This document shows positions 1,493 through 54,291 of a DNA stretch of 64,000 nt, in pieces (the first letter of the stretch is position 1; every line of letters begins with the position of its first letter). Source of the stretch: Nanobdellota archaeon. GTDB taxonomy: Archaea; Nanobdellota; Nanobdellia; Pacearchaeales; GW2011-AR1. Position numbers and translations under genes: made by a program. A model generated the notes under the pieces. That model worked only from the letters and a program-made list of their open reading frames with translations. It was not told the DNA's origin and ran no database searches. Location: contig JAKADZ010000001.1 of the NCBI GenBank assembly GCA_021818475.1, positions 72,562 to 136,561 on the forward strand. The letters are read 5' to 3'.

Positions 1493-1584
1493 CTATTCTT
1501 TCTTCATCCCCTTAATATGTAAATCGTGCATTCATTTGGCTCGAAGAGACGAATGACATTTGAACTTCATTCAAATCACGAACT
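1493..1584. repeat. hairpin module plus displaced diverged copy of the Lhr C-terminal codons
   Basis: Core hairpin TCATTTGGCTCGAAGAGACGAATGA at 1532-1556. A second hairpin (7-bp stem) lies at 1558-1576. Positions 1493-1531 (minus) read ATGCACGATTTACATATTAAGGGGATGAAGAAAGAATAG = MHDLHIKGMKKE*, which mirrors the real Lhr end MHELHLKGIKE*. Confidence 0.65.
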
Positions 1585-4210: not shown

Positions 4211-4624
4211 ATGTTTCATATGAATAAAAAGACATACGAGATTAATCCTTACTTTAATCATAATAATTATAACATATTCTTTACAAATCTTGCTAACCCT
4301 CTTAAGATAGGAATAATACTTTCCTTAAGGATGAAAGAAAAAAATGTCAGCGAATTAGTCAAAGACTTAGGCGTTGAGCAAAGCAAACTTTCTCATGCAT
4401 TAAAATCTTTGAAAAGCTGTAATATTGTAAATATGAAACAAAATGGAAAAGAAAGAATTTATTCTTTAAACAGGGATACAATTCTTCCAATGTTAAGCCT
4501 TATCGACAAACATGCTAATATTCATTGTAAATGTTCATCCTGCATGAAAGGATGTGATATCAGCCATGAGCACAAATTCAGTGGGAAATTCGAGCGGAAG
4601 AAACCGGAGGTGTCGTCGCAATGA
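4211..4624 (+). CDS. ArsR/SmtB-family winged-helix transcriptional regulator with Cys/His-rich tail
   Basis: wHTH segment NVSELVKDLGVEQSKLSHALKSLKSCNIVNMKQNGKERIYSL and a metal-ligand-like tail HCKCSSCMKGCDISHEH. The start may be the ATG at 4220 (leaderless). The last ~17 codons come from repeat module 4571-4620. The stop overlaps the nifS ATG. Confidence 0.8.
   Translation: MFHMNKKTYEINPYFNHNNYNIFFTNLANPLKIGIILSLRMKEKNVSELVKDLGVEQSKLSHALKSLKSCNIVNMKQNGKERIYSLNRDTILPMLSLIDKHANIHCKCSSCMKGCDISHEHKFSGKFERKKPEVSSQ
4571..4620 (+). repeat. short form of the dispersed module (5' motif ACAAATTCAGTGGGAA + 3' motif AAGAAACCGGAGGTGTCGTCGCA)
   Basis: Near-identical ends to 27326-27375, and to the two ends of the long copies at 8167-8265 and 47524-47632. 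Contains GGAGGTG 9 nt upstream of the nifS ATG. Confidence 0.6.
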
Positions 4625-7818: not shown

Positions 7819-8169
7819 ATGAGCAAGATTAGAAGCAGGCAAAGAGGAGCAAAACTGAATAAATCAAAACATTATAGGATTATTCTGGGAAAAAAAGAAA
7901 TAACTATTCCGGGGAAAAAATTAACTGATAAAGAGATTACTTTTTTTAGGGGAGAAAACAAATATTTTTGTGGCTACTTAAGACAACCTCATCTTTATTT
8001 TGGTAAATTCACCGGGCTTTGCGCTTTATGCGATTTTGGAGCTTGTGATTATCTGCATATTTTTAATTCATTACAAAATTCATGTCCTGTTTATCAACGG
8101 GAAGTTAAAGAAATGGAAGAATATGAGCGTGAAAGATTGGAACATGAAACAATTTATCGTCAGACTTGA
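7819..8169 (+). CDS. hypothetical Cys-containing protein
   Basis: 116-aa ORF with a basic N-terminus and a Cys cluster (CALCDFGACDYLH...SCP). No family recognised. The TGA stop abuts repeat module 8167-8445. Confidence 0.5.
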   Translation: MSKIRSRQRGAKLNKSKHYRIILGKKEITIPGKKLTDKEITFFRGENKYFCGYLRQPHLYFGKFTGLCALCDFGACDYLHIFNSLQNSCPVYQREVKEMEEYERERLEHETIYRQT

Positions 8170-8445
8170 CCCACTATTAAAGGGAAGGTCAGGCCGAGCA
8201 TTTGCACGAATGCAGAAAATATCAATCGCAATGAGTGCGGGTGCGAGTTTAAGAAACCGGAGGCGAGCGATTTCGCGAGTGCCGGAAATTTAGTTTTCTT
8301 TTACACGTTAGCTTTTCTTTCTGCATTTCTATGCAGAATGGGCGGGATTCCACTCGCACTTTTTCTAAAAGAAAAACCACGCAATGAGCGAGGTCGGGAG
8401 GTGTTGTCGCAGAAACTAGTTTCACCAAAGGGATATTAAAGATTT
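8167..8445. repeat. mosaic GC-enriched intergenic repeat (long module, copy 1)
   Basis: Positions 8174-8260 match 47531-47617 almost base for base (GGGAAGGTCAGGCCGAGCATTTGCACGAATGCAGAAAATATCAAT..AATGAGTGCGGGTGCGAG). Also present are GATTTCGCGAGTGCCGGAAAT (compare 47432-, 53083-), CAATGAGCGAGGTCG (compare 53116-) and a second GGAGGTGTTGTCGCA end. Confidence 0.7.
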
Positions 8446-22353: not shown

Positions 22354-22377
22354 TTAAATTTTTCTACATTTAATAAA

Positions 22378-22539
22378 GGCTCCGTAGCTCACTGGGTTTC
22401 TTTAAAAAAGAAACTACAATGGTAGAAATGCTTAAAACGCATTCATTCGCTACTTCGCCAAAAGAAAAGGCTCCGTAGCTCAGCCTGGTTAAACTCAAAA
22501 CAGGAAGTTTTGGTAAGAACCATTCAGCTACATTACAAT
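22378..22539 (+). repeat. two extra 5' fragments of tRNA-Lys separated by filler containing a degenerate CGAATG hairpin module
   Basis: GGCTCCGTAGCTCA at 22378 and GGCTCCGTAGCTCAGCCTGGTTA at 22469 are identical to the first 14 and 23 nt of the intact tRNA at 22540. The upstream flank motif CTACAT..A.AAT is also duplicated. The module TCATTCGCTACTTCGCCAAAAGA lies at 22443-22465. Confidence 0.7.
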
Positions 22540-22614
22540 GGCTCCGTAGCTCAGCCTGGTTAGAGCACTGGACTTTTAATCCAGGTGTCGGGGGTTCAAA
22601 TCCCCTCGGGGCCA
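22540..22614 (+). tRNA. tRNA-Lys (anticodon TTT)
   Basis: Hand-folded cloverleaf: acceptor GGCTCCG/CGGGGCC (one G-U), D stem GCTC/GAGC, anticodon stem CTGGA/TCCAG, loop CTTTTAA, T arm GGGGG-TTCAAAT-CCCCT. CCA is not encoded. Confidence 0.9.
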
Positions 22615-22625
22615 TGAAGGATTGA

Positions 22626-27107: not shown

Positions 27108-27306
27108 AATGGGAAAAATAATAATGGAAAGTTTAATAGTAGAAAACGAAGAAAACAGATTAGCAAAACTATCTAATATTGTACAAGATTTTGAATTTTC
27201 AAAGAAATCTGGAATAGTTTTGCAAGAGCCAAAAAACGCAATACCTCTTACATTGCCTGACTATTTACCAACTAAACCAGAAGACAATTTAATTAATTAC
27301 GAATAA
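27100..27306 (+). CDS. hypothetical 68-aa ORF between rpoB and rpoA
   Basis: The ATG overlaps the rpoB stop by 8 nt. No family recognised. Its position inside the otherwise tightly coupled rpoB-rpoA junction is unusual. Confidence 0.35.
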   Translation: MNKMGKIIMESLIVENEENRLAKLSNIVQDFEFSKKSGIVLQEPKNAIPLTLPDYLPTKPEDNLINYE

Positions 27307-27325
27307 AATGAAAATCAGTCATGAA

Positions 27326-27375
27326 CAACAAATTCAGTGGGAAGTTGATGCACAAGAAACCGGAGGTGTCTTAGC
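27326..27375 (+). repeat. short form of the dispersed module directly upstream of rpoA
   Basis: CAACAAATTCAGTGGGAAGTTGATGCACAAGAAACCGGAGGTGTCTTAGCA matches 4571-4620 at both ends and differs only in the central ~11 nt. GGAGGTG lies 8 nt upstream of the rpoA ATG. Confidence 0.6.
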
Positions 27376-30300
27376 ATGGTAATAGAAACAAAACCAGTCA
27401 AGAAAAGTGTAAGCGAAATAAGATTCGCTCTTCTTAGTCCTGACAACATCAAAAAAATTTCAGTTGCAAAAATAGTAACTCCCGAATTATATAACATTGA
27501 TGGTTATCCTGTCGACGGAGGTTTGATGGATTTAAGACTTGGAGCAATTGATCCAGGTGTAAGATGTAGAACTTGCGGAGGAAGATTAAAAGAATGTCTT
27601 GGCCATCCAGGCAGTATTGACCTTGCTCGTCCGGTGATTCACCTAAAATATGTTCCATTGATTGAATTAGGACTAAGATGTTTCTGTAAAGAATGCGGAA
27701 AATTATTGCTTTCTGACAAGGATTTGGAAAAATATTCAATGAGCGAGAGAGCAAAGAAAGCAAAAGATGCAAAGAAATGCCCTCATTGCGGTGCTGTTCA
27801 TGAAAAAATAAAACTTGATAAGCCGACAAGTTTCTTCGTCGGAAAAACAAGGCTTTTCCCAACTGAAATAAGAGAGATGCTTGTAAATATTCCAAATGAA
27901 GAACTGAAGAAGATAGGAATAAATACGACTACATGCCGTCCTGAATGGGCAATCCTTACAATGCTACTTGTTCCACCTGTAACAATTCGTCCTTCAATTA
28001 TTTTAGAATCAGGAGAAAGAAGTGAAGATGATTTGACTCACAAACTTTCAGACATAATCAGAGCAAATCAGAGACTTTGGGAAAACCTTAATGCAGGAGC
28101 TCCTGAAGTTATTATAGAAGACCTATGGGATTTATTGCAGTTCCACGTAACAACATTCTTTGATAACAGCGTCGCTAAAATTCCTCCTGCAAGACATAGA
28201 AGCGGACAGCCATTAAAAACAATAATGGAAAGAATCAAAGGTAAAGAAGGAAGAATAAGAAAGAATCTCGCAGGTAAAAGAGTAAACTATTCTGCAAGAA
28301 CAGTTATTTCTCCAGATCCGCAGATAGCAATAAATGAAGTCGGAATTCCTTTTGAAATTGCAAAAGTAGTAACTGTTGCAGAAGGAGTTACTGATTTAAA
28401 TATTGAAAAATTAAAGAAATTAATTCAAAAGGCAGATGAATATCCGGGAGCAAATTATATTATAAGACCCGACGGAAAAAGAAAAAAGATTACTGCTGAT
28501 TTGAAAGAAGAAATAATTAATGAAATAACACCCGGCTACAAAGTTGAAAGACATCTGCAGGACGGGGATGTTGTATTGTTTAACCGTCATCCTTCTCTTC
28601 ACAGAGGAAGTTTGATGGCCCACTTCGTTCGTGTATTGCCCGGAAGAACTTTCCGACTTCACCCCGCAGTTGCTGCGCCATACAACGCTGACTTCGACGG
28701 AGATGAAATGAATATTCACTCACCGCAGACAGAAGAAGCAAGAGCAGAAGCGAAGATTCTTTTGGATGTAAAAAGAAATTTATTCTCTCCAAAAAATAAC
28801 ACCAACTTAATCGGATGTATTGGAGATGCCATAACTGGAAATTACCTATTAGGAACAGAAGAATTTTCAAGAGATTATGCAAATCAGATTTTGTTCAAAT
28901 CTGAAATTAACAAGCAAATAACAAAGAAAACTGTAAGTGGGGCAGAAATTTTCTCAGCAATACTTCCAAAAATAAATTTCTCAAACGACTACATTCAGAT
29001 AAAAGATGGCGAGGTTACAAAAGGAATAATCAACAAAACATTATTCGGAAGTGAAGATGGGGAATTGATAAAAGAACTTGAAAAACAAATTGGAATAAAT
29101 GAAACATTTGAAATAATAAAGAAAGCGTTCACTCTCGGAATAAAATATTTATCAGACAAGGGAATCACAATCTCATTAGAAGATTTAGATCTTGATCAGA
29201 GTGTTATTGACGCGGGTGAAGAAGTAATTAAGAAAGCAGAAAAGAAAACAGAAGAAATAATTGAACAGTATAAGAAAGGAGAACTTGAGAGAATTCCGGG
29301 AAAGACCGACGAGGAATCAAGAGAAATAAGAATTCTTCAGACATTAAATGAAGTAAGAACAAAGATCGGGGAAATCGTCAAGGAGAAATTCCCTAAAGAT
29401 AATCCTGTTAATGATATGATTCAGTCAGGAGGCGGAGGAAATATACTGAATATTACTCAGATGGCTTCTTGCGTCGGACAGCAGGCTTTATGGGGCAGAA
29501 GAATTGATATTGGTTATGACAAAAGAACATTATCTTTCTTCCACAAAGGAGATCTATCTCCTCATTCAAGAGGATTTATAAGAAGTTCATTCATTAAAGG
29601 ACTTCGCCCTGATGAATTTTTCTTCGGAGCAGTTACAGGAAGAGACTCACTCATGGATACAGCATTAAGAACTCCAAAATCAGGATATTTATACAGAAGA
29701 CTTGCAAATGCACTGCAGGATTTGAGAGTGGAATATGACGGAACAGTAAGAGACAGCAACAATAATATAATACAGTATAAATATGGCGACGACGGAGTTG
29801 ATGTTTCAAAACTTCATATGAATGAACAGGTTGCTCCAGGAGAATCAATAGGAATCGTTACTGCACAGTCTTTCGGGGAACCATCAACACAAATGGCTCT
29901 TAACGTATTCCACTTCGCAGGAGTTCAGGAAATGCAGGTCACCAGCGGTCTTCCAAGATTAATTGAAATTTTCGACGCAAGAAAAAAACCTTCTTCACCA
30001 AAGATGGATATTTACTTGAAGAAAGAATATAACAACGAGAAAGATGCAAAAGTTTTCGCTGAAAAAATAAAAGAAGTAACATTAAAAGAAATTGCCTCAG
30101 AAATCAATTTGAATTTTAGTGATAAAACAATAACTATTGTAATAGATAAAGAAGGACTGAAACAAACACACAGTTCAATCAAAACAGTGGTAGAAAAATT
30201 GAATGACCTGGGATTCAGAGCAAAGGAAAAAGAAGATTCAATTTTGTTAAATGCGTCTGAATTTTCATTCAAAGAAATTTATCAGCTTAAAGAAAAATTA

Positions 30301-41656: not shown

Positions 41657-41695
41657 AAATATATTATAACCTCTTTTTCACAAATCAGGAGAAGG

Positions 41696-41859
41696 CTCTC
41701 AAAGGGAAAACATATTAAAGAAAATTTTAGGTGTTCTCATCAGCCTTGAGCAGTCTCTTAAAGGGAAAACATATTAAAGAAAACCGATTAGGTGTTCTCA
41801 TCAGCCTTGAGCAGTCTCTTAAAGGGAAAACATATTAAAGAAAACCGATTAGGTGTTCT
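41696..41859 (+). repeat. tandem repeat, about 2.7 copies of a 59-61-nt unit
   Basis: The unit is CTCTTAAAGGGAAAACATATTAAAGAAAACCGATTAGGTGTTCTCATCAGCCTTGAGCAGT, with copies starting at 41696, 41755 and 41816. Copies 2 and 3 are identical over their shared length, and copy 1 differs in the AAATTTTAGG segment. Confidence 0.9.
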
Positions 41860-42082
41860 TTAGTTGAACAAACGCGTTAAATTTTTTTTATGAATTATTT
41901 TTTCCTATTGGAGAAATCTGACGAAGTCAATTTCATAGCAATTTATAACCAAAATTTCTAAAAAAATTTTTGCAAATCATTTTGTATTGAAATTTTTCCG
42001 GTGAAGGGAGAACAAAGAAATCAGAATGATAAATACAATAAACAATAATAATCCTTAAATACTAATCATTAATAATTTTTTT

Positions 42083-44600: not shown

Positions 44601-45419
44601 ATGATTATGACAAAATCAGATTCGAACATTAATTTTGGCCCTTCGGGCCTCGGTCCTGTTAAAGATGCAATTTCAAATCTTGAAATGTATCATCAGCTCG
44701 GATTAAAAGCATGTGAAGTGGCTTTCACTTATGGTATATACATTAAGGAAAAAGAAGATGCAATAAAGATAGGAAAAAAAGCAGAAGAGCTCGGAATAAA
44801 ATTAAGTATTCATGCCCCTTACTGGATTAACTTAAATTCTAAAGAGAAAAAGAAAGTCGAAGAAAGCAAAAAAAGAATTTTAGACTGCTGCAAAATTGGA
44901 ACATTAATGAAAGCTTATCGGGTTGTATTTCACACAGGATTTTATTCCGGGATGGATAAGGAAGAAGCTTATGAAAATATTAAAAAAAGAATTTTGGAAA
45001 TCCAGGAAGGAATGAAAAAAGAAAAATACACTCCAAAATTAGCTCCGGAAATAATGGGAAAAGTAAATGTTTTTGGAAGTGTGGAAGAAATTTCGAGACT
45101 TTCAAAAGAAACCGGCTGCTCTTTCTGCATAGATTTCGCACACATTCTTGCAAGGTACAAAAGTTATCGCATAAAAGAGACACTTAGTGAATTTAAAGAA
45201 GCAAAAGAATTGCACATTCATTTTTCCGGAATTGAATATGGAGAAAAGGGAGAAAAAAACCATAAGAAAACCCCTGAAAAAGACCTGAAAACTCTCATAT
45301 CTGAACTGCCAAAAAATAAAGATATTGTAATCATAAATGAATCACCTTATCCGGTAGAAGATTCTGTTCTTGGATTAGCAATAAGCAGGCGTGACCACAC
45401 TCTTAAAGGGAAAACATAA
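44601..45419 (+). CDS. nfo: AP endonuclease family 2 / endonuclease IV-like TIM-barrel protein
   Basis: SIHAPYWINLNS, VVFHTG and FCIDFAHI match the metal-ligand blocks of endonuclease IV-like enzymes. The last ~6 codons (HTLKGKT*) lie within repeat copy 45400-45447. Confidence 0.65.
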   Translation: MIMTKSDSNINFGPSGLGPVKDAISNLEMYHQLGLKACEVAFTYGIYIKEKEDAIKIGKKAEELGIKLSIHAPYWINLNSKEKKKVEESKKRILDCCKIGTLMKAYRVVFHTGFYSGMDKEEAYENIKKRILEIQEGMKKEKYTPKLAPEIMGKVNVFGSVEEISRLSKETGCSFCIDFAHILARYKSYRIKETLSEFKEAKELHIHFSGIEYGEKGEKNHKKTPEKDLKTLISELPKNKDIVIINESPYPVEDSVLGLAISRRDHTLKGKT

Positions 45420-45447
45420 TAAAGAAAACCGGTTAGATGTTCTTTAC
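45400..45447 (+). repeat. solo copy of the 41696-type unit
   Basis: CTCTTAAAGGGAAAACATAATAAAGAAAACCGGTTAGATGTTCTTTA matches the first ~45 nt of the tandem unit, including the terminal GTTCTTTA seen in the last tandem copy. Confidence 0.65.
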
Positions 45448-45548
45448 CGTAGACAGAAGTAGTTTTACTCAAAAAATAAATAACATGTCCCCGCTTGTTA
45501 CTTACAATTAGTAATGTAAAAGTAGGAAATATATGTTGTCACCATAAA

Positions 45549-47293: not shown

Positions 47294-47307
47294 TTTTATC
47301 AACCAGT

Positions 47308-47632
47308 CTTTTTTTTCTTTATCGCCCTTTTTTGAAATATAATAATTAATCAATTTTATCTAAAACCCGCATTAAAAATTTTCCCCATTAATAATTTTCA
47401 TCGGAAATTTTTCCTCAACGAAAGTGAGTGATTTCGCGAATGCCAGAAATATTAAATGCAATGAGCTGGGTCGCGAATTAGGAAAAATTTCATTTATCTC
47501 AAAAAATTCTTATCAGGCATGACCACAAATTTAGTGGGAAGGTCAGGCCGAGCATTTGCACGAATGCAGAAAATATCAATGGTAATGAGTGCGGGTGCGA
47601 GTTAACGAAACCGGAAGTGTCGTCGCATTTTT
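47308..47632 (+). repeat. composite GC-enriched intergenic repeat (module B followed by long module A, copy 2)
   Basis: Positions 47308-47515 align with 52975-53195 (for example GATTTCGCGAATGCCAGAAATATTAAATGCAATGAGCTGGGTCGCGAAT versus ...CCAAAAATATTAAATGCAATGAGCGAGGTCGCAAAT). Positions 47524-47632 align with 8167-8265. The repeat fills the whole spacer between ORF 46877..47293 and smc. Confidence 0.7.
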
Positions 47633-47657
47633 TGCACTTTTCCTCCGGATGTATCGT

Positions 47658-52479: not shown

Positions 52480-52597
52480 AGCGGGGTGGAGCAGCCTGGA
52501 GTGCTCGTCGGGCCCATAAGCAAATCCGTAGGTTTGTATTCCTACGCTGTCGCATAGGAAACCCGAAGGTCGTGTGGTTCAAATCCCACCCCCGCTA
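52480..52597 (+). tRNA. initiator tRNA-Met (anticodon CAT) with ~42-nt intron at the canonical 37/38 position
   Basis: Acceptor AGCGGGG/CCCCGCT (A1:U72) and anticodon stem TCGGG/CCCGA (three G-C pairs 29-31:39-41) are initiator hallmarks. The loop is CCCATA, followed by the intron at ~52519-52560, which contains its own hairpin CGTAGG/CCTACG. The T arm has one extra nucleotide (GTGTGG versus CCCAC). Confidence 0.85.
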
Positions 52598-52617: not shown

Positions 52618-52688
52618 CCCCTCATAGCATAGTGGTAATGCAGTCGGCTGTAGACCGGCGTATCCAAGTTCGATTCTTGGTGAGGGGA
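52618..52688 (+). tRNA. tRNA-Tyr (anticodon GTA)
   Basis: Acceptor CCCCTCA/TGAGGGG with the archaeal/eukaryal C1:G72 identity pair, D stem GCAT/ATGC, anticodon stem GTCGG/CCGGC, loop CTGTAGA, T arm CCAAG-TTCGATT-CTTGG, discriminator A. Confidence 0.92.
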
Positions 52689-52960
52689 TATAATTCGGTT
52701 AAGCGAAGCGAAATCGAATTCATTAAAGAATCGAACGTAGTTTCATTTGGCTCGAAGAGACGAATGAGAGGGAACGAGCGAAGCGAAGTGAACTCCGATT
52801 CTTGGTGAGGGGACTTTTATATTCCGCAAATAGAAAATAATTCCCTGTTGGGCGGGCGAGAGTTTTCGCGATGGTAAGGTCAGTGTTAAGTGGGCGGGGG
52901 CTCGAGCTGGTGAGGGGACTTTATTATTTCACGAATAGAAAAATAATTCCGTTCTGTGCA
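52689..52960 (+). repeat. two inserts, each followed by a repeated tRNA-Tyr 3' end plus original downstream flank
   Basis: CGATTCTTGGTGAGGGGA at 52796-52813 is identical to the tRNA 3' end, and TGGTGAGGGGA recurs at 52908-52918. Both are followed by a similar ~45-nt flank (CTTT.AT.ATT.C.CG.AAATAGAAAA.TAATTCC). Insert 1 (52689-52794) carries the core TCATTTGGCTCGAAGAGACGAATGA (52743-52767) and an inverted copy of the T-arm (AAGAATCGAAC). Insert 2 (52851-52907) is GC-rich. Confidence 0.75.
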
Positions 52961-52974
52961 GGAGAGAATTTTAA

Positions 52975-53251
52975 CTTTTTTCTTTATCACCTCTTTTTGA
53001 AAGGTGTTTATAAATTTTAATAACCTTCGGAGATTTACTCCTTTAACAACTTTTATCGGAAATTTTTTCTTTCCGAAGGTGAACGATTTCGCGAATGCCA
53101 AAAATATTAAATGCAATGAGCGAGGTCGCAAATCAGAAAAAATTTTATTTATCTTAAAAATTTCTGAAAGAAATTTTTGCATTTTTTTCTATTAGTATGA
53201 GAAGAAATAAATGAGTGAGGTTACGATTTAAGAAAACCGATTAAGTGTTCT
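52975..53251 (+). repeat. composite intergenic repeat (module B copy 2 plus truncated module A 3' end)
   Basis: Aligns with 47308-47515. The following AATGAGTGAGGTTACGATTTAAGAAAACCGATTAAGTGTTCT parallels AATGAGTGCGGGTGCGAGTTTAAGAAACCGGAGG of the long module and the AAGAAAACCGATTAGGTGTTCT of the 41696 tandem unit. Confidence 0.65.
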
Positions 53252-53388
53252 CCACTAACGAAATATTTAAAAAAGAAAATTACAGAATAAAATTATAAAG
53301 AGGGGAAAATGAAGGAATTAAAAGAAAAAGAAGAAGAGGAAGAAGAGGAAATTTTTGACGACGTCATTGACGACCTCGAACTTGACAG

Positions 53389-54291
53389 TTAACGTATTCC
53401 CAGCGTTATTTTATTGTTTTCTTTATTTATCTCGCTGAAGTTTGTTTCTATAACTAGGTTTATATTATTCACATTTAACTGAGCAACCCAGATATTGCTT
53501 ATATGCAAAGAAATCCCGTTGCCAATTTCAACAGGATTAATATCTATCTTTCGGATAAGATTATTATCTGCATATATTGCAACATCAGAAGAATTTGCAT
53601 CGGCAAGCCCGACATTTAATATATTCATATCGAGATTAAGGAATCTGCCGCTCATGGTAGCAGAAGCATTTTCAAATATTAAATCAGGATAACTGGGAAT
53701 TGAGTATAAATCATTAAGCAGTTTCAGTGTATCATCCCCTATGGTCTGGTCGCAGTTACTGACATTATACATTATATTTGCAGGGTTCACCGAATGGTTA
53801 AATCCCAAAACATGGAGAAGTTCGTGAATCGCGATATTTGGTTTGGGGCAATCAGAATTTCGTATAAGCAAAATTTCCCCTGAAGTAATTATATTAAAAT
53901 TTCCTGCAACAATTATCTGTTTTGGCCCCCCTTCTCCTGCAACGAACATCCCATTTTCAATTTGATTTCTGTCTTCACATGTAACAGTTATTTCTTCATT
54001 ATTATCAACGGGATAAAAGACCAAAGGAGTAAGATTCTCCATTATTGTAAATGCATTTTCCATGTCATTTTGCTTCTGAAGAGGACAGGTGCTTGAAATT
54101 CTGTAAGAAATGTCAGGGCTTGAAAACCTCATGTTTGGGTAATACTGCATAACCGAACTGCCATCGATGCTGAAGTTGGTATTATTGTATTTTACCTCAA
54201 AACTTACCGGATTTGTTGGAAGCATGTAAAAAAATAAACTTGCAAAAATAATCAGCAAAAATGCCCCGACAAAAATCAACCTCCAATTCAT
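53389..54291 (-). CDS. secreted metzincin-type zinc metalloprotease with C-terminal CARDB-like domain
   Basis: N-terminal signal/anchor (WRLIFVGAFLLIIFASLFFY), the zinc motif HELLHVLGFNH (HExxHxxGxxH), and a C-terminal beta-sandwich-like segment. Confidence 0.8.
   Translation of the reverse strand: MNWRLIFVGAFLLIIFASLFFYMLPTNPVSFEVKYNNTNFSIDGSSVMQYYPNMRFSSPDISYRISSTCPLQKQNDMENAFTIMENLTPLVFYPVDNNEEITVTCEDRNQIENGMFVAGEGGPKQIIVAGNFNIITSGEILLIRNSDCPKPNIAIHELLHVLGFNHSVNPANIMYNVSNCDQTIGDDTLKLLNDLYSIPSYPDLIFENASATMSGRFLNLDMNILNVGLADANSSDVAIYADNNLIRKIDINPVEIGNGISLHISNIWVAQLNVNNINLVIETNFSEINKENNKITLGIR

What the first reader, a model, noticed from the sequence alone, without database searches (positions are those of the whole stretch)
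47294..47657. Whole intergenic spacer built from repeat modules that recur at 8167-8445 and 52975-53251
Seen directly:
- Positions 47308-47515 (module B) align over about 200 nt with 52975-53195.
- Positions 47524-47632 (module A) align with 8167-8265, including a block of about 60 nt that is identical.
- In both B-containing loci, B is followed by an A-type 3' end, which suggests a composite unit of about 280-330 nt.
- The modules are visibly GC-richer than their surroundings.
- Module A contains GCATTTGCACGAATGC (47552-47567, also 8198-8213). This is a compact version of the CATTTG...CGAATG hairpin found at the duplicated gene termini.
- Recurrent sub-motifs are GATTTCGCGA[AG]TGCC, CAATGAG[CT]G.GG and AAGAAACCGGAGG.
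- No ORF with a start codon spans the modules.

Inference: this is a family of non-autonomous mobile or recombinogenic elements, or of structured RNAs, that has not been characterised as far as I can tell.
Basis: partly seen in the sequence, partly recalled or inferred. Interest (0 to 1): 0.65.

Follow-up and report, generated by a model that had tools for sequence, protein, structure and literature searches.

The report
Nested hairpin repeats in archaeal spacers
The 364-base spacer is an insertion found only in this lineage of a tiny DPANN archaeon; it is built from two nested kinds of short repeat, a 64-base one-strand hairpin and a 65-base "gene-end" unit, which recur at gene and tRNA ends, also in related species, and match no described RNA or mobile-element family.

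Summary
47531-47615 matches 8177-8261 at 93-95%, and 47378-47510 matches 53033-53165 at 83-86%.

There are two nested units:
- **HE**, a ~64-nt hairpin element: CGA, a 10-bp stem with three conserved U.G wobbles, GA ... GA, stem, GAG.
- **Core**, a ~65-nt unit that sits at the stop codons of co-oriented genes.

Module A is a core with an HE at a fixed internal position. Module B is an AT-rich leader plus an HE, copied from the unit downstream of tRNA-Tyr.

The HE stem is kept by compensatory changes: 6 of 11 pairs, and 0 of 500 shuffles reach the observed score. It folds on one strand only.

Filled and empty sites show clean insertions with no target duplication, and relatives have 0-35 nt where this spacer lies.

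About 21 copies lie in ~84 kb of this genome, all on one strand. HEs also occur in related Pacearchaeota, mostly inside duplicated tRNA-gene ends. There is no Rfam hit, no true metagenome or viral hit, and no transposase in the sequence I could reach.

Most likely these are non-autonomous elements that spread through a single-stranded form and are tolerated in 3' UTRs. The main rival is a functional small-RNA or 3'-UTR module. The mechanism is unproven.

The parts
47308..47417 (+). Module B1 leader: AT-rich, with a TATA-like stretch and a small hairpin (ATCGGAAA..). Copy of 52975-53072.
   Evidence: (D4)
47418..47484 (+). Hairpin element (HE), the B1 copy. Arms at 47428-47437 and 47465-47474, each flanked by GA.
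   Evidence: covariance model R1 71.9 bits; structural scan; alignment A2
47510..47541 (+). Core 5' box (TTATCAGGCATGACCACAAATTTAGTGGGAAG) of module A.
   Evidence: nhmmer core profile; exact coordinates
47542..47608 (+). HE nested inside the core (module A). Arms at 47552-47561 (GCATTTGCAC) and 47589-47598 (GTGCGGGTGC).
   Evidence: R1 74.7 bits
47601..47633 (+). Core 3' box (GTTAACGAAACCGGAAGTGTCGTCGCA) followed by a T6 run.
   Evidence: The same box followed by a long oligo-T run is seen in two other module A copies of this genome.
8152..8187 (+). Core 5' box of the locus-A copy. It overlaps the stop codon of ORF 7819-8169.
8188..8254 (+). HE nested in that core, at the same internal position as at 47542.
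   Evidence: R1 75.7 bits; fold -16.7 kcal/mol, z -2.5
8264..8400 (+). Second HE, with a long loop, inserted into the core 3' box. It splits AAGAAACCGGAGG (8251-8263) from GTGTTGTCGCAG (8401-8412).
   Evidence: (19.9 bits)
52850..52913 (+). HE downstream of tRNA-Tyr, followed by a copy of the tRNA 3' acceptor strand (GGTGAGGGGA at 52909-52918).
   Evidence: R1 52.9 bits
52975..53139 (+). Module B2: leader (52975-53072) plus HE (53073-53139). Its HE and 5' flank are homologous to the HE units linked to tRNA-Tyr in L085 and L087.
   Evidence: (68.6 bits)
53190..53254 (+). Degraded module A: weak 5' box, the 3' half of an HE, and the 3' box AAGAAAACCGATTAAGTGTTCTC.
4551..4622 (+). Short core without HE. 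It forms the C-terminal tail of the ArsR-type gene and the SD plus start of the cysteine desulfurase gene at 4621.
27309..27379 (+). Short core between an inserted small ORF and the start of rpoA'. Absent from the same junction in relatives.
41672..41863 (+). Three tandem short cores with a 61-nt period. Other assemblies of the species have two units.
   Evidence: (D1)
45375..45447 (+). Short core that replaces the last codons of the AP-endonuclease-type gene. The displaced original gene end lies at 45461-45479.

Best explanation
The spacer 47294-47657 is an insertion specific to this lineage. It is made of two nested families of small, ORF-less repeats from a Pacearchaeota-type (DPANN) archaeon.

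**Family 1: the hairpin element (HE), about 64 nt.** Its form is C-GA, a 10-bp stem with three conserved U.G (T.G) wobbles, GA, a short irregular helix and an AU-rich loop of variable length, GA, the other stem arm, then GA-G. The hairpin forms on one strand only.

**Family 2: the core, about 65 nt.** Its 5' box is ATCAGnCnTGAnCA..GGGAA and its 3' box is AAGAAA(A)CCG..GGTGTyGTCGCA. It lands on or just after the stop codon of a gene in the same orientation. It supplies stop codons, and in some copies a Shine-Dalgarno region or an oligo-T run.

**Composites.** Module A is a core carrying an HE at a fixed internal site, and it propagates as a unit. Module B is a leader plus an HE, duplicated from the unit downstream of tRNA-Tyr.

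**Shown:** the copies, the nesting, the covarying strand-specific hairpin, the clean filled and empty sites without target duplication, the restriction to one clade, and the position and strand bias.

**Inferred:** these are non-autonomous elements that spread through a single-stranded intermediate, either single-stranded DNA as in REP or IS200/IS605-type systems, or a transcript. A factor encoded elsewhere would supply the enzyme. The elements would survive only where the compact genome tolerates them, namely 3' UTRs and redundant copies of tRNA ends. Once inserted they become part of the 3' UTR or tRNA trailer of the neighbouring gene.
For: **Copies**
- Searches give six HEs and about ten cores in the window.
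- Searches give two more module A copies, two short cores and a partial core in about 19 kb of flanking contigs of the same genome.

**Structure**
- In the helix that holds the 10-bp stem and its closing C-G pair, 97% of cells pair and 6 of 11 pairs carry compensatory changes.
- 31 cells are changed on both sides, against 10.8 +/- 2.5 in shuffles (0 of 500 reach this). Slid controls give 7 or fewer.
- RNAalifold predicts the same stem on its own.
- One U.G pair is invariant (13 of 13) and its neighbour is U.G in 12 of 13.
- In four of five copies the opposite strand folds 6-9 kcal/mol worse.

**Insertion**
- The SMC stop codon lies 0-35 nt from the next gene in L085, L087 and L088, against 364 nt here.
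- In L006 and L031 the rpoB/rpoA' junction has no spacer.
- An HE splits the core 3' box at 8264-8400.
- In L089 an HE sits cleanly between AGAAAAA and CAGAGTGAG at the end of a tRNA-deacylase gene. L091 has the uninterrupted sequence there.
- A core replaces the last codons of the AP-endonuclease gene, and the old gene end is displaced downstream.
- L090 holds two collapsed units, CGAG-NNN-CGAG.
- The number of tandem core units differs between assemblies of the same species, three against two.

**Distribution**
- The covariance model finds HEs in L085, L087, L089 and L090, and more weakly in L012 and L016. The other 80 loci searched give nothing stronger than one marginal match (L046, E 0.94).
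- A full module A is present in L089.

**Orientation and position**
- All roughly 21 copies are on the window's + strand, although 21 of 58 genes are on the - strand.
- 10 of 12 core loci overlap, or lie within about 20 nt of, the stop codon of a co-oriented gene.
Against: - No transposase, integrase or HUH enzyme turned up in the 30 window ORFs scanned, or by tblastn with the IS200-type protein of L085. Only about 84 kb of this genome could be examined.
- The HE is a single hairpin with no paired ends. It has no terminal inverted repeats and no consistent target motif that I could define.
- The HE next to tRNA-Tyr is kept at the same locus in three species whose SMC proteins are only 80% identical. 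The two GA.AG motifs and the wobble triplet are nearly invariant. This looks more like a selected RNA than decaying selfish DNA.
- Twelve of 17 HEs are co-oriented with local transcription. In this genome all are.
- No movement was observed directly. Every insertion is inferred by comparing species.
Confidence: 0.45

Rival explanations
1. The HE, and module A as a whole, is a functional structured RNA module rather than a selfish element. Two forms are possible: a small RNA made from tRNA-linked or its own transcripts, or a portable 3'-UTR cassette of stop codons, protective hairpin and oligo-T terminator. Such a cassette could bind a protein or stabilise the upstream mRNA. Copies would arise by ordinary duplication and recombination and be kept by selection.
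For: - Covariation with conserved U.G wobbles and two nearly invariant tandem GA motifs, on one strand only.
- The tRNA-Tyr-linked HE is retained at the same locus in the window, L085 and L087 despite 80% SMC identity.
- Module A is conserved between the window species and L089, with compensatory stem changes.
- Every copy in this genome is co-oriented with, and directly downstream of, a gene or tRNA.
- Two module A copies end in the same oligo-T run, and the copy in the finding ends in T6.
- Small-RNA genes directly downstream of tRNA genes, and mobile C/D-box sRNAs, are documented in Nanoarchaeum equitans (PMC3491384, read).
Against: - Five of 17 HEs in relatives are antisense to the adjacent tRNA.
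- HEs interrupt other repeats and a protein-coding 3' end.
- Presence varies between close species, and collapsed remnants exist.
- No consistent promoter distance was seen.
- No Rfam family, C/D boxes, H/ACA features or standard K-turn could be recognised (and by inspection).
- Short cores lack any supported fold.
Confidence: 0.3
2. The modules are scars of site-specific recombination. They would be leftover attachment-site junctions from repeated integration and loss of plasmids or viruses that target tRNA genes and gene 3' ends. The hairpin would be part of a recombinase site, and the duplicated gene ends would be the usual att repeats.
For: - Copies of the tRNA-Tyr 3' end at 52804-52813 and 52909-52918.
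- Copies of the tRNA-Lys 5' end at 22375 and 22466.
- HEs flanked by T-loop and acceptor fragments of the neighbouring tRNA in L085, L087, L089, L090, L016 and L012, in either orientation.
- A duplicated GAATAAAATG around the small ORF inserted at rpoB/rpoA'.
- Integration of mobile elements into archaeal tRNA genes, leaving tRNA fragments, is documented (PMC3293823, abstract read).
Against: - No integrase gene is nearby.
- The tRNA fragments are interrupted by the HE rather than contiguous, as an att repeat would be.
- HEs also sit in non-tRNA contexts with no duplicated flank.
- A double-stranded recombinase site would not need wobble-preserving covariation on one strand.
- The pattern scans of viral contigs found nothing.
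Confidence: 0.12
3. The modules are coding sequence: a repeated Cys-rich peptide or C-terminal tail module. Examples are ..HEHKFSGK..KKPEVSS and ..SICTNAENINRNECGCE.., possibly read through an in-frame TGA at 8167-8169.
For: - In one frame the copies give similar peptides.
- Two cores are in frame with the upstream gene and form its tail.
- ORF 7819-8169 would continue to 8441 if the TGA were read through.
Against: - Copies differ by 1-nt and other non-triplet indels.
- The copy at 27309 is frame-shifted.
- The 22 differences between B1 and B2 fall in all three positions of a triplet register (7, 3 and 12), and they follow base-pairing rather than codons.
- Loops vary from about 25 to 110 nt.
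- Tandem copies carry in-frame stops.
Confidence: 0.03

Closest known systems
REP / REPIN elements of bacteria (mobilised by RAYT, a Y1 HUH transposase)
   Same: - Short ORF-less imperfect hairpins.
- Many copies in extragenic DNA, typically just after genes.
- The structure is kept by compensatory change and is restricted to one lineage.
- No target duplication.
- Become part of 3' UTRs.
   Different: - Archaeal host.
- About 64 nt with a long variable loop.
- Conserved CGA/GAG flanks instead of GTAG.
- Never seen as inverted doublets; all copies are on one strand.
- No RAYT-like gene found in the sequence available.
IS200/IS605-derived miniature elements (PATEs) and single-strand 'peel and paste' transposition
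   Same: - A strand-specific hairpin with mismatches or wobbles.
- Insertion without target duplication.
- A strong strand bias among copies.
- An IS200-type gene exists in a related genome (L085 16060-16494).
   Different: - One hairpin only, rather than a left-end and right-end pair.
- No conserved 4-5-nt target could be defined.
- The end hairpins of the L085 IS200 copy are unrelated in sequence.
- No TnpA homologue in the window.
Small RNA genes linked to tRNA genes, and 'mobile' C/D-box sRNAs of Nanoarchaeum equitans (PMC3491384)
   Same: - Small structured RNAs placed directly downstream of tRNA genes in a DPANN-type archaeon.
- Copies scattered next to rearranged genes.
   Different: - The HE has no C, D, C' or D' boxes and no guide-spacing rule.
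- It gives no Rfam C/D hit above noise.
Rickettsia palindromic elements and Neisseria Correia elements
   Same: - Tiny repeats in reduced or compact genomes.
- They insert into gene ends and RNA genes and alter C-termini or UTRs.
- They can bring expression signals.
   Different: - Those are symmetric palindromes or carry terminal inverted repeats and target duplications.
- The elements here are asymmetric, nested and oriented.
tRNA-gene disruption by integrating elements in archaea (Caldiarchaeum model, PMC3293823)
   Same: - Fragments of a tRNA gene end lie beside the intact gene.
- The pattern varies between close relatives.
   Different: - No recombinase-bearing element is present.
- The fragments are only tens of bases apart.
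- Each fragment is interrupted by the 64-nt hairpin.

Membership tests
Any Rfam family | Match to a curated covariance model | tested here: not met
   Only tRNAs reach gathering scores in the window and in six loci. Permissive searches over the three loci give only noise, E >= 0.5 and far below the cut-offs.
REP/REPIN | Short imperfect palindrome, extragenic, many copies | tested here: met
   About eight HEs in roughly 84 kb. All are intergenic or at gene ends, and the stem is supported by covariation.
REP/REPIN | Conserved 5' GTAG and inverted-doublet (REPIN) arrangement | tested here: not met
   The flanks are CGA/GAG. All copies in this genome share one orientation and none forms an inverted pair.
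REP/REPIN | RAYT (Y1 HUH) gene in the same genome | not testable with these tools
   None was found in about 84 kb. The rest of the genome could not be fetched.
MITE (DDE-transposon derived) | Terminal inverted repeats | tested here: not met
   The arms differ systematically (TTT against GGG, and GA against GA), so as duplex DNA they are poor inverted repeats. Core ends show no inverted repeat.
MITE (DDE-transposon derived) | Target-site duplication | tested here: not met
   Filled and empty pairs show 0-1 nt of ambiguity for the HE in L089 against L091, and none at the split core 3' box.
IS200/IS605-type miniature element | Different subterminal hairpins at the left and right ends, and a fixed short target 5' of the element | tested here: not met
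   There is a single hairpin, and the 5' flanks vary (..ATTC..AGGC..GGGGG..AAAAA). The hairpins of the L085 IS200 copy are unrelated.
IS200/IS605-type miniature element | No target duplication; strand-biased copies | tested here: met
   no duplication; all copies on one strand. The direction of replication could not be inferred from skew.
Archaeal C/D-box sRNA | C (RUGAUGA) and D (CUGA) boxes with internal C'/D' and 12-nt guides | tested here: not met
   No such boxes in alignment A2. The only resemblance is AAUGA. The 10-nt 'guides' pair with each other.
Archaeal H/ACA sRNA | Pseudouridylation pocket and ACA 3' of the lower stem | tested here: not met
   The 10-bp stem is continuous, followed by GAG and variable bases. 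There is no ACA.
K-turn (L7Ae site) | Tandem G.A pairs next to a 3-nt bulge and a Watson-Crick C-stem | tested here: inconclusive
   Tandem GA/AG steps flank both ends of the stem, but by inspection no 3-nt bulge with a closing C-stem pair is present.
Archaeal bulge-helix-bulge intron | Two 3-nt bulges separated by a 4-bp helix at the boundaries | tested here: not met
   The unpaired CGA and GAG lie opposite each other below an uninterrupted 10-bp stem. This was judged by inspection only.
CRISPR array (for the tandem units at 41672-41863) | Identical repeats separated by unique spacers | tested here: not met
   The whole 61-nt unit repeats, including the would-be spacer.

The most novel reading that the evidence does not exclude
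The HE is a previously undescribed kind of archaeal element. It is a strand-specific 64-nt hairpin whose 10-bp wobble-rich stem is bracketed by two tandem G.A motifs. Two readings are open, and they are not mutually exclusive:
- It is the recognition structure of a new single-strand mobilisation system that homes to tRNA T-loop or D-loop DNA and to gene ends in DPANN archaea.
- It is a new protein-binding RNA module that these reduced genomes move around as a ready-made 3' end (stop codons, hairpin, terminator).

Either reading would tie together the duplicated tRNA and gene termini seen throughout this clade.
Probability: 0.25. Interest if true: 0.75.

Novelty: new variant of a known kind. 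Interest (0 to 1): 0.58.

Why it matters
**Why it is unexpected.** DPANN archaea have some of the smallest and most compact cellular genomes. They are not known for proliferating repeats: none of the 12 top-ranked DPANN papers returned by my full-text search contains the MITE or REP search terms.

**What is seen here.** A Pacearchaeota lineage carries about one tiny repeat per 4 kb. These repeats:
- rewrite gene C-termini;
- supply ribosome-binding sites to essential genes (rpoA' and a cysteine desulfurase);
- sit in 3' UTRs;
- mark rearranged tRNA-gene ends.

**Why it would matter if confirmed.**
- If mobile, it would show how reduced symbiont genomes still turn over their gene ends without a visible transposase.
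- If functional, it would add a structured RNA family to a group with almost no characterised non-coding RNA.
- The covariance model built here gives a direct way to survey either case.

Tried and rejected
1. **Protein-coding reading of the modules.** Rejected because of frameshifts, non-triplet indels and base-pair covariation.
2. **Local hairpin GCATTTGCACGAATGC.** Replaced by the long-range stem.
3. **Whole short cores or whole modules as stable folds.** z-scores lie between -1.4 and +1.5, so there is no support.
4. **C/D-box, H/ACA, standard K-turn and bulge-helix-bulge intron.** Features absent by inspection of A2.
5. **Core as a tRNA-like relic.** The acceptor-like pairing of 5-6 of 7 positions is not conserved in L089, and Rfam gives no tRNA signal.
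6. **Archaeal origin-recognition boxes** (because of TTCAGTGGGAA). Rejected because copies are dispersed and share one orientation.
7. **Integron attC or diversity-generating retroelement targets.** No integrase or reverse transcriptase is nearby, housekeeping genes are involved, and I saw no sign of adenine-specific variation (not formally tested).
8. **Link to the IS200-type element of L085.** Its end hairpins are unrelated and it has no homologue in the window.
9. **Public DNA scans.**
   - The metagenome scan with a sub-unit pattern gave one chance hit, inside a bacterial gene.
   - Four viral-contig scans gave nothing.
10. **GC-skew analysis to infer replication direction.** Skew follows gene orientation and is uninformative.
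11. **Homologue search with the 138-aa neighbour gene.** It found only itself.
12. **A loose structural regex scan.** It gave many false hits in GA-rich coding DNA, so only model-based hits are counted.
Full report
**Organism and setting**

The window has 34% G+C and carries an archaeal gene order: rpoB, a fused rpoA', S12/S7, EF-2 and EF-1alpha. The closest RpoA' sequences in the GTDB species set are 87-89% identical. They come from MAGs labelled Nanoarchaeota, Pacearchaeota or Woesearchaeota. The host is therefore a DPANN archaeon of the Pacearchaeota type.

The same species was assembled independently in several ENA and Logan samples. These contigs are 99.7-100% identical across the finding. 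The spacer is not an assembly artefact.

**Observation check**

The repeats are real.
- 47531-47615 matches 8177-8261 at 93% over 85 nt (D8), and at 95% over 80 nt with E 1e-31.
- 47378-47510 matches 53033-53165 at 83% over 133 nt (D4), and at 86% over 111 nt with E 1e-21.
- A 27-nt match links 47311-47337 with 52976-53002.
- The quoted motifs are at the stated coordinates.
- The modules reach 0.40 G+C, against 0.23-0.25 just upstream.

**Anatomy: two nested units**

The two "modules" are composites.

*The shared GC-rich part.* The GC-rich part of A and the heart of B are homologous. I call this unit the hairpin element (HE).

*The core.* Profile searches revealed a second unit, the core. It has a 5' box ATCAGnCnTGAnCA...GGGAA and a 3' box AAGAAA(A)CCG..GGTGTyGTCGCA.
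- It occurs without an HE at 4551-4622, 27309-27379, 41672-41863 (three tandem copies) and 45375-45447.
- It occurs with an HE at one fixed internal position at 8152-8263 and 47510-47633. That combination is module A.
- A degraded copy lies at 53190-53254.

*The second HE at locus 8152-8412.* This HE (8264-8400) splits the core 3' box into AAGAAACCGGAGG and GTGTTGTCGCAG.

*Module B.* It is an AT-rich leader with a small hairpin, followed by an HE. B1 (47308-47515) duplicates B2 (52975-53182). In both loci a core follows.

*The finding itself.* The 364-nt spacer reads: leader, HE, linker, core 5' box, HE, core 3' box, T6.

**The hairpin**

I aligned thirteen HEs from the window and three related genomes (A2). 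They support this form:
- a closing C-G pair;
- a tandem G.A/A.G step;
- a 10-bp stem;
- a second tandem G.A/A.G step;
- a short irregular helix (AU, UA, a bulged A, GC, CG) that holds in most copies;
- an AU-rich loop of variable length.

Counts for the stem helix:
- 97% of cells pair.
- 6 of 11 pairs show changes on both sides.
- 31 doubly changed cells are observed, against 10.8 +/- 2.5 in column shuffles (0 of 500 reach this).
- Partners slid by 1-3 columns give 7 or fewer such cells.

RNAalifold predicts the same stem and closing pair without my input.

Two wobble positions are essentially fixed: U.G in 13 of 13 and in 12 of 13 copies. On the opposite strand these would be C.A mismatches. 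In line with this, four of five copies fold into the model stem at -12 to -17 kcal/mol (z of -2.2 to -2.5 for three of the four), while their complements are 6-9 kcal/mol weaker. The exception is B1, whose palindromic TTCGCGAA allows an alternative fold on either strand.

The selected form is therefore single-stranded and strand-specific. It is either a transcript or single-stranded DNA.

**Evidence that these are insertions**

1. In three relatives with 80-82% identical SMC proteins, the SMC stop codon lies 0-35 nt from the neighbouring gene. Here the gap is 364 nt.
2. In L006 and L031, rpoB and rpoA' are joined by GAATAAAATG with no spacer. The window has about 266 nt inserted: a small ORF flanked by a duplicated GAATAAAATG, then a core that ends in the SD and ATG of rpoA'.
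3. The AP-endonuclease-type gene has lost its last five codons to a core. The old end, AGTTTTACTCAAAAAATAA, survives 40 nt downstream.
4. In L089 an HE lies between AGAAAAA and CAGAGTGAG at the end of a tRNA-deacylase gene. L091 has the uninterrupted sequence there. Only 0-1 nt is ambiguous, so there is no target duplication.
5. An HE interrupts a core 3' box (above).
6. L090 holds two collapsed units, CGAG-NNN-CGAG, next to a full HE in the same context.
7. The tandem core array has three units in the window and two in other assemblies of the species.

**Distribution**

A covariance model of the HE (R1) finds six copies in the window, all on the + strand. It finds two more module A copies in about 19 kb of flanking contigs of the same genome. 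The core profile adds two short cores and a partial one there.

Across 1.43 Mb from 86 related loci, HEs appear in L085, L087, L089 and L090. Weaker hits appear in L016 and L012, next to tRNA-Lys. The other 80 loci give nothing stronger than one marginal match (L046, E 0.94).

L089 carries a complete module A about 75-80% identical to the window copies, with compensatory stem changes (GCAUUUGCAC/GUGCGGGUGC against GAAUUUUCAC/GUGGGGGUUC). L085 has a short core at a site that is not orthologous to any window copy.

Other searches gave nothing:
- A degenerate sub-unit pattern found only a chance match in JGI metagenomes.
- Four patterns found nothing in viral contigs.
- Rfam gives no hit.
- None of the 12 top-ranked DPANN papers returned by a full-text search contains the MITE or REP search terms.

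**Context**

*Cores.* In this genome, 10 of 12 core loci overlap, or lie within about 20 nt of, the stop codon of a gene in the same orientation. Two cores end as the ribosome-binding site of the next gene. Two module A copies end in the same CTTTTTTTATTTTTTATT run, which looks like an archaeal terminator. The copy in the finding ends in T6.

*Strand.* All of the roughly 21 copies are on the + strand, although 21 of 58 genes are on the - strand. Co-orientation with genes alone does not explain this. GC skew follows gene orientation and did not reveal the direction of replication.

*tRNA ends.* In relatives and at 52850, HEs sit inside duplicated fragments of the adjacent tRNA gene.
- The usual layout is T-loop piece, HE, 3' acceptor strand. 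This holds for tRNA-Tyr, tRNA-Met and an intron-rich tRNA.
- In L012 the HE lies in the D-arm of a tRNA-Lys 5' fragment.
- The HE can be in either orientation relative to the fragment. This argues for insertion at the DNA level rather than a feature of the tRNA transcript.
- The HE unit next to tRNA-Tyr is kept at the same locus in the window (B2), L085 and L087.

**Mechanism**

*What is shown:*
- a nested, oriented, clade-restricted repeat system;
- a hairpin maintained by selection on one strand;
- clean insertions without target duplication.

*What I infer, at 0.45:* these are non-autonomous elements that spread through a single-stranded intermediate, in the manner of REP/RAYT or IS200/IS605 systems. 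The enzyme would be encoded elsewhere. The elements would persist only where a compact genome tolerates them.

*Arguments against this inference:*
- No candidate enzyme turned up in 30 scanned ORFs or by tblastn.
- The hairpin is single, with no paired ends.
- No target motif could be defined.
- The retention of one HE at the same locus across species looks like function.

*The main rival, at 0.30:* a functional RNA module. This could be a tRNA-linked small RNA, or a portable 3'-UTR cassette of stop codons, hairpin and terminator. There is a precedent in the tRNA-linked and "mobile" C/D-box sRNAs of Nanoarchaeum equitans (PMC3491384).

*Other rivals:*
- A recombination-scar reading, at 0.12. 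It explains the duplicated tRNA ends (compare PMC3293823) but not the one-strand covariation.
- A coding reading, which is excluded for practical purposes.

The two leading readings are not mutually exclusive.

**Comparison with known families, and novelty**

The elements work most like REP or miniature IS200/IS605-type elements. They fail the defining tests of each family:
- no GTAG motif and no inverted doublets;
- no left-end and right-end hairpin pair;
- no terminal inverted repeats and no target duplication;
- no RAYT or TnpA found.

They also fail the tests for C/D, H/ACA, bulge-helix-bulge introns and CRISPR.

I file them as a new variant of a known kind, namely small structured non-autonomous repeats. 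Four features are unusual:
- the wobble-rich stem bracketed by two tandem GA steps;
- the nesting of the HE inside a second unit associated with gene ends;
- the total strand bias;
- the association with duplicated tRNA-gene ends in DPANN archaea.

**Limits**

- Only about 84 kb of this genome, and 20-kb pieces of relatives, could be read.
- The covariance-model E-values are rough.
- The structure was derived from the same sequences on which pairs were counted. The slid-partner control and RNAalifold agree with it.
- The K-turn and bulge-helix-bulge judgements are by inspection only.
- No expression or population data were available.

Noticed in passing
window 52480-52597: tRNA-Met gene with a canonical-position intron of about 42 nt. 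ARAGORN and Rfam both miss it. The orthologue in L087 (9152-9229) has no intron, and L089 (8088-8207) has one.
   Followed up: partly
window 52804-52813 and 52909-52918 (gene end at 52679-52688): Two extra copies of the 3' acceptor strand of tRNA-Tyr (GGTGAGGGGA) downstream of the gene. The first is a contiguous T-loop plus acceptor fragment. The second follows a hairpin element.
   Followed up: partly
window 22375-22400 and 22466-22491: Two partial copies of the 5' end of tRNA-Lys lie upstream of the intact gene (22539-22615). In L012 the equivalent fragment is interrupted by a hairpin element.
   Followed up: partly
window 27108-27375: About 266 nt are inserted between rpoB and rpoA', where relatives have overlapping stop and start signals. 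The insert holds a 65-aa ORF (27109-27306) flanked by a duplicated GAATAAAATG. Other lineages (L005, L008) carry different small Cys-rich ORFs at the same junction.
   Followed up: partly
window 41668-41863: A tandem array of 61-nt core units varies in copy number: three units in the window and two in ENA contigs of the same species.
   Followed up: yes
window 53309-53392: A 27-aa, highly acidic microprotein gene (MKELKEKEEEEEEEIFDDVIDDLELDS) with a strong SD. It is conserved at the same position in L085 and L087.
   Followed up: no
window 1531-1556 and 52742-52767; L094 13010-12960 (-): A 26-nt identical block, CATTTGGCTCGAAGAGACGAATGA. A similar block lies downstream of another tRNA in the same genome. 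It looks like a variant or decayed hairpin element, but the model does not detect it.
   Followed up: partly
window 7819-8441: ORF 7819-8169 (a Cys-rich small protein) would continue in frame through a single TGA for another 90 codons across module A. This is most simply a by-product of the insertion and not recoding.
   Followed up: partly
L089 5340-5640 (-): A GC-rich tRNA-like gene with several insertions and a repeated CTCAACCCGAAGGG motif. It is not called by ARAGORN. A hairpin element plus a copy of its 3' end lies directly downstream.
   Followed up: no
L085 15950-16530: An IS200-type Y1 transposase gene with its own end hairpins (ATACCCTGTGGTCTTGCCACAGGGATAA and ATACCCTAAGGTCTTGCCTTAGGGAG). 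These are unrelated to the hairpin element.
   Followed up: yes
window 12151-12495; L085 13121-13468 and 21606-22379: Toxin-antitoxin genes (PemK/MazF, HicA/HicB) are scattered through these small genomes, at places that differ between relatives.
   Followed up: no
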